Shown here: piece by piece, positions 10,995 through 15,325 of the stretch
Layout of the letters: the number at the start of each line of letters is the position of its first letter
How positions within the stretch are numbered: the stretch's first letter is position 1
DNA from: a phage
DNA: 48,147 nt
Strand: one strand, 5' to 3'
Sequence record: PV636260.1
The notes under the pieces: generated by a model
The model's input: the letters and a program-made list of their open reading frames with translations, nothing else
The model's database searches: none
Told to the model about the DNA's origin: nothing
Translations under genes and position numbers: made by a program

Positions 10995-13868
10995 TTAGCC
11001 TCCTGTTTTTTCCTGAATGTAATTGTAAACCTCACCGCCCTGTGAACAAGACTCTCGAATCATTTTTTTGAACATCATTTCTACGCCCTGAGAAATTCCT
11101 CTCGGATCTGAACCGTTGTCAACTTTAACCTCCATGCCCCTAACATCAACGACCGTCCCGCCTGCTGATTGGTTCACTGCCTTCGGTGCGGATTTAGATG
11201 CGTTAAATCCAGATGTTGCAACACTACCAGCAGCGGCAGCAAGCGAGGTAACGGCGGCTCCTGAAGATAAAGACCTAAAACCAGAGGCGGCAGGCGTAGG
11301 GGTTGCCTGTGATGCCGCAGAAGCACCAGACGACGCCACTCCAGCAAAGCTCCACGTCTTACCGCCCATCATGCCTGAGATCGTATTGAATATTACCATC
11401 TGAGCAATCATCTTGATAATCATGCTAATGATGTTTTTCGCAAAGTCCTCAAAGTTTGCCTTACCTGTAGTAAGGAATTGGGTCATCATATCACTCATTC
11501 CGTTAAGTGAACTTGACGCGATATCATACACGTTGCCGTACATATCCATTGCAGAATCGCCGTAATCTGCAAATGCGCTTTCAGCACCAGCTAACCAGTC
11601 AGCGCGCTTGGCATCTTCCGCAGCATAGTAATCATTTTGTGCCTTGATCATGTTCTGGAGTTTTTCATCTCCTTCGCTGCCACCTGCATTAATATAGTCA
11701 GTGGTGATCTTAGCCAGCTCCGCTTGTCGTTCCATTTCTCGGGTGCTCATCCCGCGAGACGCGTTTAGCTGCTCTGTAGCTGCCGTCAAATCATTGACAA
11801 ATTTCAGTGATTTATCGGTAAGGGCGTTCAACTGCTGCTGCTTAACAATCTGATCGCCAATCTCAGCCTTTTGTTTCGCAAGCTCTAAAACCTTCTCTTG
11901 GTTTGCAAGTAGTGCTTTTTCTTCCGCAGATAACTGACGCTTAGAACTAGCTTCTCGAAGAACAGCAATCGTCGCCTCGGTCGTAAACAGTGCTTTTCTC
12001 TGTGCGGAAAGTTTTTGCCCAATCTCCTTGTGCTCTTGCAATACCTTAAGTTGAGCCTTGAGTGAAATTAACTCCTTGTCGAATTGCTCTGTCGGTGAGC
12101 GTACAATTTTCGACTGCTTATTTCTTTCTCGGTTTCGCTTCTCGATCTCTTCTGCTTCTTTCCTTATTGCCTCCTTAGTTTCCTCACTGTACTGCTTTTC
12201 AAGAGTTCGACGCTGCTTCATCGCTTCAATGTATCCCATCTCGCCTTTTTCTACGCGAGCGTTAATAGCATCAAGCTCTGAAGCCAACTGGTCGTAGTTG
12301 TCGCGAGAACTTTTTACGATGTTCTCCTGCTCCTTCAGTACATCAGCGCCGAAATCACTCATTCCAGGCAGTGACTGAGTTGCCTTTATGGCTGAGGCGA
12401 TAAAGTTTGAGATGTACTCATCACCCTTCGCTAGAATCATTTTGACCTGAATCACTGTACCCTGAACAACGTCGATAATCAGGTTTAGCGCCCCGAGTGT
12501 ATGATCACCAACCCATCCCCACGCGTCCGAAGCCCATTGTTTAATATCGCTCCACATCTTTTCCAGAGGGGTAGCGTTATCCGCGATCGACTTCATTCGC
12601 TTTTCCATTACGTCTGCGAATAGTTTGGTAGCCTCTGATACAGCCTCAGTTTCTCCTTTCGTCCGGCTTAATGTATCGATATAGGTAAGCTGCCCTTTTT
12701 CAAGGAAATTATATTGCTCGTTTAACTTCTTCAGACCTTTTACCGGATCGCTTGCGATTTTGTCGAACTCAGAAATAATTTGACTTGCTGACTTTCCTGT
12801 TGACGCTGACCACTCTGCGGTAGCCTTAGTGATGTTCTGGATCTGCTCGCGGGTGTACTTACCAGAACTTGCCAACTCCGTCACAATCTCGCGAATACTC
12901 CCAATGATTGAGTTGCTTGTCTGAGCCACCTTTTTAGCAACAGAATCAAGTTCTTCAGCCGTGACTCCTGCATAACCTCCAGTCTCAACAAGAGCCTTCT
13001 GCATATCAGTTATTGACTTGTAAGAGTCATAACCGGCTTTCGCAAGAAGGCCTAAAGAGCCGACAAGAACACCAACACCAACTGTGACCGGATTAATATA
13101 GCTGAGCAATACCTTAAATGTATTCCCGATCCCGCCGAACGAGTCCTTGATTTGACCGCCTTGCTGGATGGCAACCATCCAAACTGGCATACCGGACGCA
13201 AGAGATGTAACGACGTCGGTAATCTGCGCGGGAAGCATTCGCATTGCCTGCCTATATTGCCCAGCGCTAATACCTGCGGCATTCATAGCTCGACCCTGCT
13301 CTTTCAGTTTTGCGATCAGTGGCGCTGCTTCATTTGATAGTCCAAGCTGAGCCGCTTTCAGTTCCATTAACTCTGCGTGAGTTTTGCCAATAGCGTTAAC
13401 CTGACTGTTCAGGGAATCCATGAACGCTTTGTTTTTCGCTGCTGCCTGCTCTTTTGCTTTCGCTTCCTGCAATGCTGCCTGACCCTCTTCAGTAAGCATG
13501 GCTCGGCTACGAGCAAGTTTTGCATTTTGCATGTCCAGCATTTCACCCAAACGGAAAAATGTTTCATCTGGAACAACGCCCTTTTGCCAGAGTTTATCAA
13601 GCTGCTGAGATGCAATCTTCAGCCTTTCCATTTTTGATACTGTAGGATCGATTGCCTTTTCTACAGCCTCGTACTCTTTGCGCTGGCGCTTAAGTTGCTC
13701 AGCGTGTTCTTTAGCCTTCTGTTTTGCAACCTCGGCCTCATTGATTAAAGACCCCATAGAGTCAGCGGCTTGGTCGTTAGCTTTTGAAAACTCCTTCAAT
13801 GACTTGACGGCGCGCTGTACTGTCGACACATCAACGTCAAGCGATAGACCTGCTACCTTATCAACCAT
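10995..13868 (-). CDS. tail tape measure protein
   Basis: 957 aa, long coiled-coil Ala/Lys/Glu-rich regions, hydrophobic Gly-rich segment, position after G/GT. Confidence 0.9.
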
Positions 13869-13885
13869 ATAACCCCCTTATATAC

Positions 13886-13910
13886 AAAAAAACCGCCAAA
13901 CGGCGGCTTA
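13886..13910 (-). terminator. intrinsic terminator-like hairpin upstream of the tape measure gene
   Basis: CCGCCGTTTGGCGG + T7 on minus strand. Confidence 0.5.
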
Positions 13911-14542
13911 GTTATTCTGCTTAGCAATCATTTCAAGCGCTTTCGCTTCCATGATCCTAACGTCCTGCAATGCCAGTTCTTCATCTTCTATTTTATAGAT
14001 TTTAAACAACATAGGCAAAACATTATAGTCAAGACCATAAGCGCCAGCGCCTGAACTTCTCCACTGAGTGAGCATTGATGTAAAAACATTCCAAGCCTTC
14101 ACCATTTCAGCGTCGCCAATTATCGTTTCAGGTTCCTCGTCTTCATAGTCTGAAAGACTTAAACCAACCGATCGCAATTGTTCCTCTGTTGGCGGCTTCT
14201 GATATAACAGATAGACCGCCTTTTTTAGTTTTTTGCGCGGTGTCCGGCAAGAGCCTTGATGTAAGTCGCTGTCAGGTTGTACGCTGCTGAAGGATAATAC
14301 TGAACCAGTTTTCGCGCATTTTCTTCGTTAAATTCTTCTTCAAGGTTCCATCCTGACGCGATCTTGGTAATGAACTCGCTGTCGTTCATTTCTCCCTGGT
14401 TGGCATACATATCCTGAACTTCTTTACTGGAAAGGTGGCGTACAGTGAAAATGATCGTTGCATCTTCACCGTTAGGCATGGTGAAGGTAACTGGAAGTTT
14501 GAAGTCTGGAAGTTGACCAAGAATAAAATTAAATTTAGCCAT
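13908..14542 (-). CDS. tail assembly chaperone -1 frameshift fusion product (gpGT-like)
   Basis: Slippery heptamer A_AAA_AAC (complement of 14228-14234) at the last codons of G; the -1 frame is open into ORF 13908..14177. Confidence 0.7.
14225..14542 (-). CDS. tail assembly chaperone (gpG-like)
   Basis: RBS CAGGAGAAA; 105 aa; immediately upstream of tape measure with slippery site at its 3' end. Confidence 0.8.
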   Translation of the reverse strand: MAKFNFILGQLPDFKLPVTFTMPNGEDATIIFTVRHLSSKEVQDMYANQGEMNDSEFITKIASGWNLEEEFNEENARKLVQYYPSAAYNLTATYIKALAGHRAKN

Positions 14543-14564
14543 GATATTTCTCCTGATTGGTTAA

Positions 14565-14583
14565 TGGCACTTTTTGTTAAAAG
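14565..14583 (+). promoter_or_regulatory. copy of the ATAGCAC...TAAAAC element (TGGCACTTTTTGTTAAAAG), plus-oriented within the minus-strand tail module
   Basis: 17/19 match to the repeated element; TACGAT 18 bp downstream. Confidence 0.4.
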
Positions 14584-14626
14584 AGAATAGTGCAAACTTG
14601 ATACGATGATTTTACAGAAATGAATA

Positions 14627-14647
14627 AGGGGGCGCAAGCCCCCTTGT
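14627..14647. terminator. hairpin terminator downstream of the major tail gene
   Basis: GGGGGCGCAAGCCCCC followed by T-rich tract on minus strand. Confidence 0.6.
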
Positions 14648-14656
14648 AGATATGAT

Positions 14657-15325
14657 TTAGGCACCAGGTGATGCCAGAGCGGATGAAACGAAAGTGAAAT
14701 CACCCTTCAGGGATACGGCGAGTTGTACCGTTTCCATTTCGTTTACTTGCGTAGATGGAATGTCGTTAAAAGACAAGATACCAGCCCACATGCGCATCTC
14801 GTTCGCTTTTGGAACATACATCCGAACCGCAGTTACCTGACCAGAAGAATCCAGCTTACGCAGAATAGGGTAGATCGGGTTATCAAATTCGTGCGCGAAT
14901 GTGTAAGTTAGCGAGATCGCAGATTTAAACGTTGGGATCTGCTGTTCTTTATCGTCGGACAAGCACTGATAAGTATAATACTGCTGCTCGCCGCCGTCCT
15001 GACCAATCTCCTGTACACAAGGAATCTCAGTCCAGCCAGTAATTTTTGCAAAGCTCATCGTACCGCCAGCCGGGAAAACAAGAGTATCAGAGGTGTCAAT
15101 CCCAGCGAGAGTGATGCTTGTTTCCTGGGCGTCAGTAACAATTAGCACTCGACTAACCATCTTGGCCCAGGTTGACTGAGTTACAATAACGTAATCACCT
15201 TTTGCCAAGTCGCCCTTAGATGCAACTGTAGCAACAGGATTTTTTGCGTTAGTGACAGCGGTCGCCTCGATCTCTTCTCCGCGAGAGGTTTCCACGAAAA
15301 TTTGCGCGCCATTTGGTAAGTGCAT
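14657..15325 (-). CDS. major tail protein (gpV-like)
   Basis: RBS AAAGGAGA; 222 aa; position upstream of G/GT. Confidence 0.8.
   Translation of the reverse strand: MHLPNGAQIFVETSRGEEIEATAVTNAKNPVATVASKGDLAKGDYVIVTQSTWAKMVSRVLIVTDAQETSITLAGIDTSDTLVFPAGGTMSFAKITGWTEIPCVQEIGQDGGEQQYYTYQCLSDDKEQQIPTFKSAISLTYTFAHEFDNPIYPILRKLDSSGQVTAVRMYVPKANEMRMWAGILSFNDIPSTQVNEMETVQLAVSLKGDFTFVSSALASPGA

What the first reader, a model, noticed from the sequence alone, without database searches (positions are those of the whole stretch)
14225..14240. Programmed -1 frameshift site for the G/GT tail chaperone
The last sense codons of the G-like gene read GCA AAA AAC TAA, giving the slippery heptamer A_AAA_AAC. The -1 frame is open from there through to 13908 and joins the downstream ORF. 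This reproduces the conserved G/GT arrangement of lambda-like tail assembly chaperones.
Basis: partly seen in the sequence, partly recalled or inferred. Interest (0 to 1): 0.5.

Follow-up and report, generated by a model that had tools for sequence, protein, structure and literature searches.

The report
Tail chaperone frameshift site, T1-like phage

Summary
The window is a T1-like phage (Tunavirus, Drexlerviridae), 99.6% identical to Shigella phage ISF002 across this region.

On the minus strand a 105-aa chaperone gene (Pfam Phage_TAC_4) lies between the tail tube gene and the tape measure gene. It ends GCA AAA AAC TAA. The -1 frame runs without a stop from the heptamer A_AAA_AAC (14234-14228) to 13908 and encodes a DUF1799 domain.

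The comparative evidence is strong:
- The two-frame layout occurs in 1131 phage records.
- The slip-prone motif sits at the same place in all 69 distinct junctions examined.
- The base before the Lys codon is always A, although that codon's amino acid varies (Ala, Val, Glu).
- The 3-base pattern of variability switches from the G frame to the -1 frame at the site.
- The TTG "start" of the downstream ORF is a conserved Leu codon that reads TTA or CTT in T1 and most other genera.
- In EP23 a -1-frame stop lies directly 5' of the heptamer, so the shift can only happen there.

GenBank records of phages Stevie and Skenny already annotate the joined product, and their genome papers describe it. There is no sequence homology to lambda G or T, so this is an analogue. 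A downstream hairpin is plausible but not universally conserved. No experimental proof was found for this clade.

The parts
14225..14542 (-). G-like tail assembly chaperone gene (105 aa plus TAA). It has an AGGAG Shine-Dalgarno at 14554-14550, 7 nt before the ATG.
   Evidence: ORF list and translation. Pfam PF08748 Phage_TAC_4, E 1.8e-36, full length. PHROG 569 and 17368. The SD was read directly.
14228..14234 (-). Slippery heptamer A_AAA_AAC, in phase (GCA AAA AAC). These are the last two sense codons of G.
   Evidence: Sequence. It is the only in-phase heptamer in the 100-nt overlap. It is conserved at this position in 46 of 69 distinct junctions, and the other 23 keep the tetramer A_AAA or A_AAG at the same position. 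The first A is invariant, although that codon encodes Ala, Val or Glu.
14225..14227 (-). G stop codon TAA, immediately 3' of the heptamer. It may act as a pause element.
   Evidence: A stop (TAA, or TGA in 2 junctions) directly follows the heptamer in every relative that has the heptamer. A stimulatory role is inferred, not tested.
13908..14234 (-). -1 frame read after the shift (T-like extension, 108 codons plus TAA). Predicted GT product is 211 aa: G residues 1-103 followed by K(N/K)LKKAVYLLYQKPPTEEQL...
   Evidence: Open frame. Pfam PF08809 DUF1799, E 1.3e-11, at residues 130-206 of the fusion. PHROG 17368 (213 positions) matches G at positions 1-107 and this peptide at 107-212. Third-position variability follows this frame from the G stop onward.
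14191..14220 (-). Candidate stimulatory hairpin 7 nt 3' of the heptamer: GGCGGU...(UCUG-UUAUAU-CAGA)...GCCGCC.
   Evidence: MFE -18.3 kcal/mol over 78 nt, z -2.0. -15.5 kcal/mol, z -2.9 over 55 nt. The GGCGG/CCGCC arms are present in about 25 of 39 distinct relatives and, in a longer version, in EP23. The hairpin is absent in Rtp-like phages, L084, L086 and L098. The covariation score is matched by the structure slid by one column. Status: plausible, not established.
14175..14177 (-). TTG that opens the mechanically listed downstream ORF (14177..13908, 89 aa), with a GAGG 5 nt upstream (14186-14183). It is most likely just an internal Leu codon of GT.
   Evidence: ORF list and sequence. The same codon is TTA in T1 and three close relatives (L056-L059) and CTT or TTA in most other genera. 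The first start codon in the T frame is otherwise at +122, +149 in Webervirus and +221 in EP23.
14220..14226 (-). Second heptamer A_AAA_AAG, in phase with the T (-1) frame (CTA AAA AAG). It is specific to this sub-lineage.
   Evidence: Read. Most relatives have AGG or CGG (Arg) instead of AAG here. Function unknown and not tested.
14657..15325 (-). Major tail (tube) protein gene, immediately upstream.
   Evidence: Pfam PF08813 Phage_tail_3, E 3.7e-70.
10995..13868 (-). Tape measure protein gene, immediately downstream.
   Evidence: Pfam PF06791 TMP_2, E 1.9e-73, and PF09718 Tape_meas_lam_C, E 7e-25.
14626..14645 (-). Terminator-like hairpin between the tube gene and G.
   Evidence: Terminators are annotated at the equivalent place in T1 and Stevie.
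13890..13909 (-). Terminator-like hairpin overlapping the T stop codon, before the tape measure gene.
   Evidence: Terminators are annotated at the equivalent place in T1 and Stevie.

Best explanation
This is a programmed -1 ribosomal frameshift site in the tail assembly chaperone gene of a T1-like siphophage.

Most ribosomes translate the 105-aa G-like chaperone and stop at TAA (14227-14225). A small fraction slip back one base on A_AAA_AAC (14234-14228). In that slip tRNA-Lys re-pairs from AAA to the overlapping AAA and tRNA-Asn re-pairs from AAC to AAA. Alternatively tRNA-Lys slips alone. The ribosome then reads the -1 frame to 13908 and makes a 211-aa GT-like fusion of Phage_TAC_4 and DUF1799.

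Shown here:
- the sequence, the open -1 frame and the domain content;
- in-phase conservation of the slip site;
- selection on the -1 frame starting at the site;
- the absence of a conserved independent start codon.

Inferred by analogy with lambda G/GT (Levin 1993; Xu 2004, 2013, 2014, as summarised in PMC5009743):
- the shared G part binds the tape measure protein;
- the T part recruits the tube protein;
- the low shift rate sets a high G:GT ratio;
- neither protein ends up in the virion.

The adjacent stop codon and the hairpin 7 nt downstream may raise the otherwise low efficiency of this motif in E. coli. That step is inferred and only weakly supported.
For: - Sequence and frames.
- Gene order and families: tube, Phage_TAC_4, DUF1799, tape measure. 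PHROG 17368 spans both halves and joins them at the heptamer.
- The G-then-T layout in two frames occurs in 1131 phage records.
- Slip-site conservation over 125 loci and 69 distinct junctions: [GC/GT/GA]A AAA AAC T[AG]A in 46; GCA AAA GTT/GTC/GCC TAA in 18 (Webervirus); GCA AAG GTC TAA in 5 (Rtp-like). All lie at the same position.
- Four more distant relatives: phiES15 has A_AAA_AAC, a Ralstonia phage has G_GGA_AAC, and Pappous and VLCpiS8c have A_AAG. All sit at the extreme 3' end of G.
- The third base of the codon before Lys has zero entropy, while neighbouring third positions carry 1.6-1.9 bits and the encoded residue varies among A, V and E.
- Variability by codon position switches from the G frame (0.77/0.52/1.60) to the -1 frame (0.72/0.66/1.40) at the site. 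This holds in the 48 nt before the TTG as well (0.54/0.57/1.26).
- The T-frame peptide K[KSG]L[KR][KR]AVYL is conserved from the first codon after the shift.
- In EP23 the -1 frame is open for only 7 nt before the G stop, because TGA lies directly 5' of AAAAAAC. The shift must therefore occur on the heptamer.
- Several relatives have no callable T gene at all, leaving a gap of about 350 nt in the annotation. T1 RefSeq has only a truncated 56-aa ST39.
- Joined CDSs are annotated in Stevie and Skenny and described in their papers.
- A_AAA_AAC is a proven natural -1 site in E. coli (IS1), with more than 0.1% shifting without stimulators.
- The lambda positive control behaved as expected in the same script.
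Against: - No direct protein or reporter evidence for any T1-like phage was found in the literature searches.
- A_AAA_AAC is rated a low-efficiency motif in E. coli.
- The hairpin is not conserved in all lineages that keep the site, and it lacks convincing covariation.
- No Shine-Dalgarno-like sequence of 4 nt or more lies 6-17 nt upstream of the motif (read).
- In this particular lineage a TTG with a GAGG 5 nt upstream could allow some independent initiation of a T-only protein.
Confidence: 0.88

Rival explanations
1. There is no recoding. The downstream ORF is a separate gene, translated from its own TTG at 14177 with the GAGG at 14186-14183 as ribosome binding site, giving an 89-aa T-only protein.
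For: The ORF 14177..13908 is listed with a TTG start. GAGG lies 5 nt upstream. Close relatives in GenBank annotate two separate genes in this way.
Against: - The TTG is a conserved Leu codon. It reads TTA in T1 and three close relatives and CTT or TTA in most genera. The first T-frame start is otherwise at +122, +149 or +221, inside the conserved domain.
- The 16 codons between the G stop and the TTG are conserved as protein in the -1 frame and show third-position variability.
- Gene callers find no T gene in grams, haarsle, NPat, PWKp14 and EP23.
- Independent initiation could still add a minor product in this lineage.
Confidence: 0.05
2. The fusion arises from transcriptional slippage. RNA polymerase adds one extra A in the A6 run, and normal translation of that mRNA yields the same GT protein, with Lys at the junction.
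For: An A6 run is present. One inserted A puts the T frame in register. One related contig (L072) carries A5 instead of A6, which shows the run is length-unstable at least in sequencing.
Against: - Relatives keep the arrangement with runs of only A4 (Webervirus), A3 (Rtp-like) or with GGGAAAC (Ralstonia phage).
- What is conserved is the codon phase of the motif, including the invariant third-position A of the preceding codon. That matters for tRNA re-pairing and not for polymerase slippage.
- From general knowledge, efficient slippage by E. coli RNA polymerase needs longer runs, roughly 8-9 or more. This was not tested here.
Confidence: 0.04
3. It is a chance motif next to a decaying or non-functional downstream ORF.
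For: AAAAAAC is not enriched in the window: 19 found against 15 expected.
Against: - The -1 frame is open for 108 codons and carries a Pfam domain.
- The arrangement is found in 1131 records.
- The -1 frame is under purifying selection and the motif is conserved in phase.
Confidence: 0.01

Closest known systems
Phage lambda G/GT programmed -1 frameshift (Levin, Hendrix and Casjens 1993; Xu, Hendrix and Duda 2004, 2013, 2014; summarised in PMC5009743)
   Same: - Two ORFs lie between the major tail gene and the tape measure gene.
- The second ORF is in the -1 frame and has no start of its own.
[quoted passage not shown]
- The product is a G-plus-extension fusion.
- Low efficiency is expected.
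   Different: - The heptamer differs: A_AAA_AAC here, G_GGA_AAG in lambda.
- Here the site is formed by the last two sense codons and abuts the stop. In lambda it lies 7 codons before the G stop.
- The proteins belong to different Pfam families: Phage_TAC_4 and DUF1799 here, Phage_TAC_2 and Phage_tail_T in lambda. No homology was detectable (blastp E 0.9; hhalign probability 1.4% or less).
- Lambda's frameshift is proven experimentally; this one is not.
Annotated tape measure chaperone frameshift of T1-like phages Stevie (KM236241) and Skenny (MK931444)
   Same: - They belong to the same virus family (Drexlerviridae) and have homologous G and T proteins.
- Stevie has the identical site, GTA AAA AAC TAA, at the same position.
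- Both have a joined CDS in GenBank, and the frameshift is stated in their genome announcements.
   Different: - Records of this window's closest relatives (ISF002, DELF2, LHE71, T1) annotate two separate genes, or a truncated second gene, and no join.
- Skenny and other Webervirus phages have only the tetramer A_AAA (GCA AAA GTT TAA), not the heptamer.
IS1 insA/insAB' -1 frameshift at A_AAA_AAC
   Same: It uses the same heptamer in the same host, with low efficiency and no established stimulator, and it yields a fusion protein that is needed in small amounts.
   Different: The proteins and the biology are unrelated (a transposase). Here a stop codon directly follows the motif, and a candidate hairpin lies 7 nt downstream.
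E. coli dnaX A_AAA_AAG frameshift
   Same: Both involve a -1 slip of tRNA-Lys on an A-rich heptamer in E. coli, with a downstream hairpin.
   Different: - dnaX uses the highly efficient AAG form together with an upstream SD-like stimulator and a strong stem-loop, and it yields a shorter product.
- Here there is no upstream SD-like element, the motif is weaker and the product is longer.

Membership tests
Conserved tail-assembly-chaperone -1 frameshift of long-tailed dsDNA phages (G/GT arrangement, Xu et al. 2004) | Two ORFs located between the major tail protein gene and the tape measure gene | tested here: met
   Order on the minus strand is Phage_tail_3 (15325-14657), G (14542-14225), T ORF (to 13908), TMP (13868-10995).
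Conserved tail-assembly-chaperone -1 frameshift of long-tailed dsDNA phages (G/GT arrangement, Xu et al. 2004) | The second ORF overlaps the first in the -1 frame and lacks a conserved start of its own | tested here: met
   The -1 frame is open from 100 nt upstream of the G stop to 13908. The TTG at 14177 is not conserved.
Conserved tail-assembly-chaperone -1 frameshift of long-tailed dsDNA phages (G/GT arrangement, Xu et al. 2004) | An in-phase slippery sequence within the overlap, conserved among relatives | tested here: met
   A_AAA_AAC at 14234-14228 is the only heptamer in the overlap. The motif or its A_AAR core is at the same position in 69 of 69 distinct junctions and in 4 more distant phages.
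Conserved tail-assembly-chaperone -1 frameshift of long-tailed dsDNA phages (G/GT arrangement, Xu et al. 2004) | The fusion protein is actually made, at a low ratio to G, and is required for tail assembly | not testable with these tools
   No experimental report for T1-like phages was found. Mass spectrometry, a reporter assay or phage genetics is needed.
Lambda gpG (PF06894 Phage_TAC_2) and gpT (PF06223 Phage_tail_T) sequence families | Significant sequence or profile match to lambda G and T | tested here: not met
   The window proteins hit PF08748 and PF08809 only. Lambda G and T hit PF06894 and PF06223. Blastp of GT against GT gives a best E of 0.9. Hhalign probability is 1.4% or less.
Pfam Phage_TAC_4 (PF08748) plus DUF1799 (PF08809) chaperone pair | Scores above the Pfam gathering thresholds for both halves | tested here: met
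   125.6 bits against a cut-off of 21.1, and 44.9 bits against a cut-off of 26.
Tail assembly chaperone fold | Predicted structure matches solved tail assembly chaperone structures | tested here: inconclusive
   A single-sequence AlphaFold2 model of G had mean pLDDT 47.8 and pTM 0.29, too poor for a fold search. A sequence search of the PDB gave only chance-level hits.
Stimulated -1 PRF cassette (dnaX or IS3/IS911 type) | A downstream hairpin or pseudoknot 5-9 nt after the motif, supported by conservation or covariation | tested here: inconclusive
   A hairpin starts 7 nt after the motif (-15.5 to -18.3 kcal/mol, z -2.0 to -2.9). It is kept in about 25 of 39 distinct relatives and lost in others that keep the site. 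The covariation score of 0.154 is matched by the structure slid by one column (0.166).
Stimulated -1 PRF cassette (dnaX or IS3/IS911 type) | An upstream Shine-Dalgarno-like element 6-17 nt 5' of the motif | tested here: not met
   The upstream sequence CTTGCCGGACACCGCGC contains no GGAG, GAGG or AGGA (read).

The most novel reading that the evidence does not exclude
Across this chaperone family the slip signal may not really be a heptamer. It may be a tRNA-Lys slip on A_AAR fixed at the extreme 3' end of G, within at most one codon of the stop, with termination-linked pausing as part of the signal. The A-site half of the motif turns over freely between lineages: AAC, GTT, GTC or GCC, and in Pappous the stop codon itself. 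In this window's sub-lineage a second, stronger heptamer (A_AAA_AAG, 14226-14220) lies in the T frame immediately after the first. It could divert some shifted ribosomes into a third frame and so tune the yield of GT.
Probability: 0.1. Interest if true: 0.35.

Novelty: already known. Interest (0 to 1): 0.15.

Why it matters
The value is mainly practical.

- **Annotation.** The 211-aa GT product is missing from the GenBank and RefSeq records of the closest relatives (ISF002, DELF2, LHE71) and of T1 itself, where ST39 is a truncated 56-aa stub. Both chaperone ORFs are mislabelled 'tail length tape measure protein' in RefSeq.
- **Engineering.** Anyone recoding, codon-optimising or engineering these E. 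coli and Shigella therapeutic phages must keep the heptamer, its phase and probably the stop and hairpin context. Otherwise tail assembly should fail.
- **Host defence.** Tail assembly chaperones were recently reported as triggers of a bacterial Avs sensor that binds the N-terminal core shared by the short and long isoforms (bioRxiv 10.64898/2026.01.04.697583).

Scientifically the site adds one more case to a well-established rule. The turnover between heptamer and tetramer at a fixed position is a small comparative point about which tRNA slip is essential.

Tried and rejected
- **Homologue search.** The search for homologous proteins with the GT fusion returned one T-only protein (P0001, 123 aa, DUF1799). 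It gave no material on natural in-frame fusions and no alignment for structure prediction.
- **Structure prediction.** G alone, without an alignment, gave pLDDT 47.8, so no fold search was run.
- **PDB sequence search.** Only chance-level proteasome hits, E about 0.02.
- **NCBIfam.** No family matched.
- **Homology to lambda G and T.** None by blastp or hhalign.
- **Covariation for the hairpin.** The observed score exceeds the column shuffles but is matched by the structure slid by -1. The apparent compensatory GC-to-UA change in Webervirus sits beside broken pairs, so it was not accepted as support.
- **Crude gene set for the chance estimate.** The set displaced G with a spurious overlapping 105-aa ORF (14703..14386). 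The one long extension it reported (AAATTTA at 14536) is an artefact of that ORF.
- **Upstream SD stimulator.** Looked for by eye and not present.
- **Literature.** Searches for experimental proof in T1-like phages found only genome announcements.

Full report
**What the window is.** The 851 bases around the finding are 99.6% identical to Shigella phage vB_SsoS-ISF002 and 95-99% identical to many other Tunavirus phages (Drexlerviridae). Phage T1 itself belongs to this group (T1 is locus L056/L126). All the genes concerned lie on the minus strand.

**Checking the observation.** The G-like ORF starts at ATG 14542, preceded by AGGAG at 14554-14550. It ends ...CAC CGC GCA AAA AAC TAA, with the stop at 14227-14225.

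- The heptamer A_AAA_AAC occupies 14234-14228. Its first A is the third base of the GCA codon, which is the phase a tandem -1 slip needs.
- Translation of the -1 frame from 14234 gives 108 codons without a stop, down to TAA at 13910-13908.
- That reading frame contains the mechanically listed ORF 14177..13908.
- The -1 frame is open for 100 nt upstream of the G stop, and A_AAA_AAC is the only in-phase X_XXY_YYZ heptamer in that overlap.

**Is it more than chance?** The motif alone is not. AAAAAAC occurs 19 times in the window against 15.0 +/- 3.9 expected. In a crude gene set, in-phase heptameric motifs occur about once per 350 codons. Leaving out one heptamer that lies in a spurious ORF overlapping G, none of the 38 found has a -1 extension beyond 44 codons, against 108 here. 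That set missed G itself, because the same spurious 105-aa ORF displaced it. The weight of evidence lies in what the two frames encode and how they evolve.

**What the frames encode.**

| Gene or frame | Pfam match | E-value |
|---|---|---|
| G | Phage_TAC_4 (PF08748), full length | 1.8e-36 |
| -1 extension | DUF1799 (PF08809) | 1.3e-11 |
| Upstream gene | Phage_tail_3 (tail tube) | 3.7e-70 |
| Downstream gene | TMP_2 plus Tape_meas_lam_C (tape measure) | 1.9e-73 and 7e-25 |

PHROG 17368 is a 213-position profile. It matches G at positions 1-107 and the -1 peptide at positions 107-212, so fused proteins joined exactly at this point are already in that collection.

**Comparative evidence.** A tblastn search with the inferred fusion finds 1131 phage records. 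The 60 records listed span the ranking from best to weakest, and in 59 of them the match falls in two pieces, that is, in two frames. I collected 125 loci, which gave 69 distinct 182-nt junction regions.

The last codons of G in those 69 junctions are as follows.

| Ending of G | Junctions | Group |
|---|---|---|
| GTA AAA AAC TAA | 28 | several genera |
| GCA AAA AAC TAA | 15 | includes this window and T1 |
| GTA AAA AAC TGA | 2 | |
| GAA AAA AAC TAA | 1 | EP23 |
| GCA AAA GTT, GTC or GCC TAA | 18 | Webervirus |
| GCA AAG GTC TAA | 5 | Rtp-like |

The lineages without the heptamer have no in-phase heptamer anywhere in their overlap. They keep the tetramer A_AAA or A_AAG at exactly the same position.

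Four more distant relatives follow the same rule:
- phiES15 has A_AAA_AAC followed by TAA.
- A Ralstonia phage has G_GGA_AAC followed by TGA.
- Pappous has A_AAG followed by TAA.
- VLCpiS8c has A_AAG, then CCT, then TAA.

Four further observations tie the shift to this spot.
1. The third base of the codon before Lys is invariant (0 bits). Neighbouring third positions carry 1.6-1.9 bits, and the encoded residue itself varies among Ala, Val and Glu. The nucleotide is therefore the constrained feature, not the amino acid.
2. Mean column entropy by codon position is 0.77/0.52/1.60 in the G frame upstream of the site. Downstream of the G stop it is 0.72/0.66/1.40 in the -1 frame. The same holds for the 48 nt before the TTG (0.54/0.57/1.26).
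3. The -1-frame peptide K[KSG]L[KR][KR]AVYL is conserved from the first codon after the shift.
4. In EP23 a TGA in the -1 frame lies directly 5' of AAAAAAC, so the only place to enter that frame is the heptamer.

**The independent-start rival.** In this window the T ORF could in principle start at TTG 14177, with GAGG 5 nt upstream. That codon is a conserved Leu. It reads TTA in T1 and three close relatives and CTT or TTA in most genera. The first start codon in the T frame is otherwise at +122, at +149 in Webervirus and at +221 in EP23. All three positions are inside the conserved domain.

Gene callers accordingly leave the region unannotated in grams, haarsle, NPat, PWKp14 and EP23. T1 RefSeq carries only a 56-aa stub, ST39. 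Some T-only initiation in this lineage cannot be excluded, but it is not the conserved route.

**The transcriptional-slippage rival.** One extra A inserted in the A6 run would give the same protein. Two points argue against it as the conserved mechanism. Relatives keep the arrangement with A4, A3 or GGGAAAC. The conserved feature is the codon phase of the motif, which matters to tRNA re-pairing and not to RNA polymerase.

**Mechanistic detail.** The common denominator across the family is a Lys codon (AAA or AAG) preceded by A. This is the tetramer class that Sharma et al. ranked as shift-prone in E. coli: A_AAG > U_UUY > C_CCY > A_AAA (PMC4066793).

The full heptamer A_AAA_AAC is classed as low efficiency in E. 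coli and much weaker than A_AAA_AAG (PMC5009743; PMC4066793). It still gives more than 0.1% shifting without stimulators, and it is the proven natural site of IS1. A low rate fits a G/GT system. In lambda the G:GT ratio is about 30:1 and the ratio matters for tail assembly (PMC5009743).

Three possible enhancers were considered.
- **The stop codon.** It abuts the heptamer in every relative that has the heptamer. A stimulatory role is inference only.
- **A hairpin at 14220-14191, starting 7 nt after the motif.** Its energy is -15.5 to -18.3 kcal/mol with z of -2.0 to -2.9. The GGCGG/CCGCC arms occur in about 25 of 39 distinct relatives, and EP23 has a longer version at the same offset. The hairpin is absent from Rtp-like phages, L084, L086 and L098, which keep the slip site. 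Both arms are also coding sequence (Ala-Val and Pro-Pro). The covariation score of 0.154 is matched by the structure slid by one column (0.166). I treat it as plausible and unproven.
- **An upstream SD-like element.** None is present.

**Predicted products.** G is 105 aa. GT is 211 aa, made of G residues 1-103 followed by K, then N or K, then LKKAVYLLYQKPPTEEQL... and ending ...AKQNN. Residue 105 is Asn if both tRNAs slip after AAC has been decoded. It is Lys if only tRNA-Lys slips, or if the mRNA carries an extra A.

**Comparison with what is known.** The arrangement is the one described for lambda G/GT and generalised by Xu, Hendrix and Duda (2004), cited. My script recovered lambda's G_GGA_AAG, in phase and 7 codons before the G stop, as a positive control.

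The proteins are not detectably homologous to lambda's:
- Blastp gives a best E of 0.9.
- Hhalign probability is 1.4% or less.
- Lambda G and T belong to PF06894 and PF06223, against PF08748 and PF08809 here.

This is therefore an analogue of lambda G/GT and a member of the Phage_TAC_4 plus DUF1799 pair.

Within Drexlerviridae the frameshift is already on record. [quoted passage not shown] The Skenny paper says the same (PMC6763657). Both GenBank records carry joined CDSs. Stevie's site is GTA AAA AAC TAA at the same position. I found no experimental demonstration for any T1-like phage.

**Verdict.** The feature is real and functional with high probability (0.88), but it is an expected, already described property of this phage family. 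Interest is low (0.15). The useful outputs are these:
- an annotation correction for this phage group;
- a clear list of what must be preserved when engineering these phages;
- the comparative point that the tRNA-Lys A_AAR slip at a fixed position next to the G stop is the conserved core of the signal.

Noticed in passing
window 14220-14226 (- strand): A second heptamer, A_AAA_AAG, the most shift-prone motif in E. coli, lies in phase with the T (-1) frame right after the first site (CTA AAA AAG). Only this sub-lineage has it. Most relatives read AGG or CGG (Arg) there. A second slip would lead into a frame that stops after about 26 codons.
   Followed up: partly
window 14626-14645 and 13890-13909 (- strand): Terminator-like hairpins bracket the G-T pair, one after the tube gene and one overlapping the T stop before the tape measure gene. 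T1 and Stevie have terminators annotated at the same places. This suggests stepwise attenuation of transcription from tube to chaperones to tape measure.
   Followed up: partly
L126 (NC_005833, phage T1) 1440-1607; L002 (NC_041995); L003 (NC_049825): RefSeq names both chaperone ORFs 'tail length tape measure protein'. T1's ST39 is annotated as a 56-aa stub that starts 150 nt after ST40 ends, which leaves the conserved N-terminal part of the T domain unannotated. No join is annotated.
   Followed up: yes
L072 (IMGVR_UViG_2974632794_000001) about 1205-1225: This relative has GTAAAAACTAA, with A5 instead of A6. That puts T in the +1 rather than the -1 frame relative to G. It is most likely a homopolymer sequencing or assembly error, but it could be a real variant.
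   Followed up: partly
L045, L100-L125 (Webervirus); L085-L090 (Rtp-like); L129-L131: The slip motif turns over between lineages at a fixed position: A_AAA_AAC, A_AAA plus GTT, GTC or GCC, A_AAG plus GTC, G_GGA_AAC, and A_AAG directly before the stop. The Lys codon preceded by A is the element most widely kept; only the Ralstonia phage (G_GGA_AAC) lacks the preceding A.
   Followed up: yes
window 14386-14703 (- strand): A mechanical 105-aa GTG ORF overlaps the start of G and the intergenic terminator, in another frame of the same strand. It has the same length as G and displaced G in a greedy ORF picker. It is probably not a gene.
   Followed up: no
whole window: The window length (48147) equals the record length of Klebsiella phage VLCpiS8c (ON602734). 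That phage's G/T proteins are only about 34% identical to the window's, so the match appears to be a coincidence.
   Followed up: no
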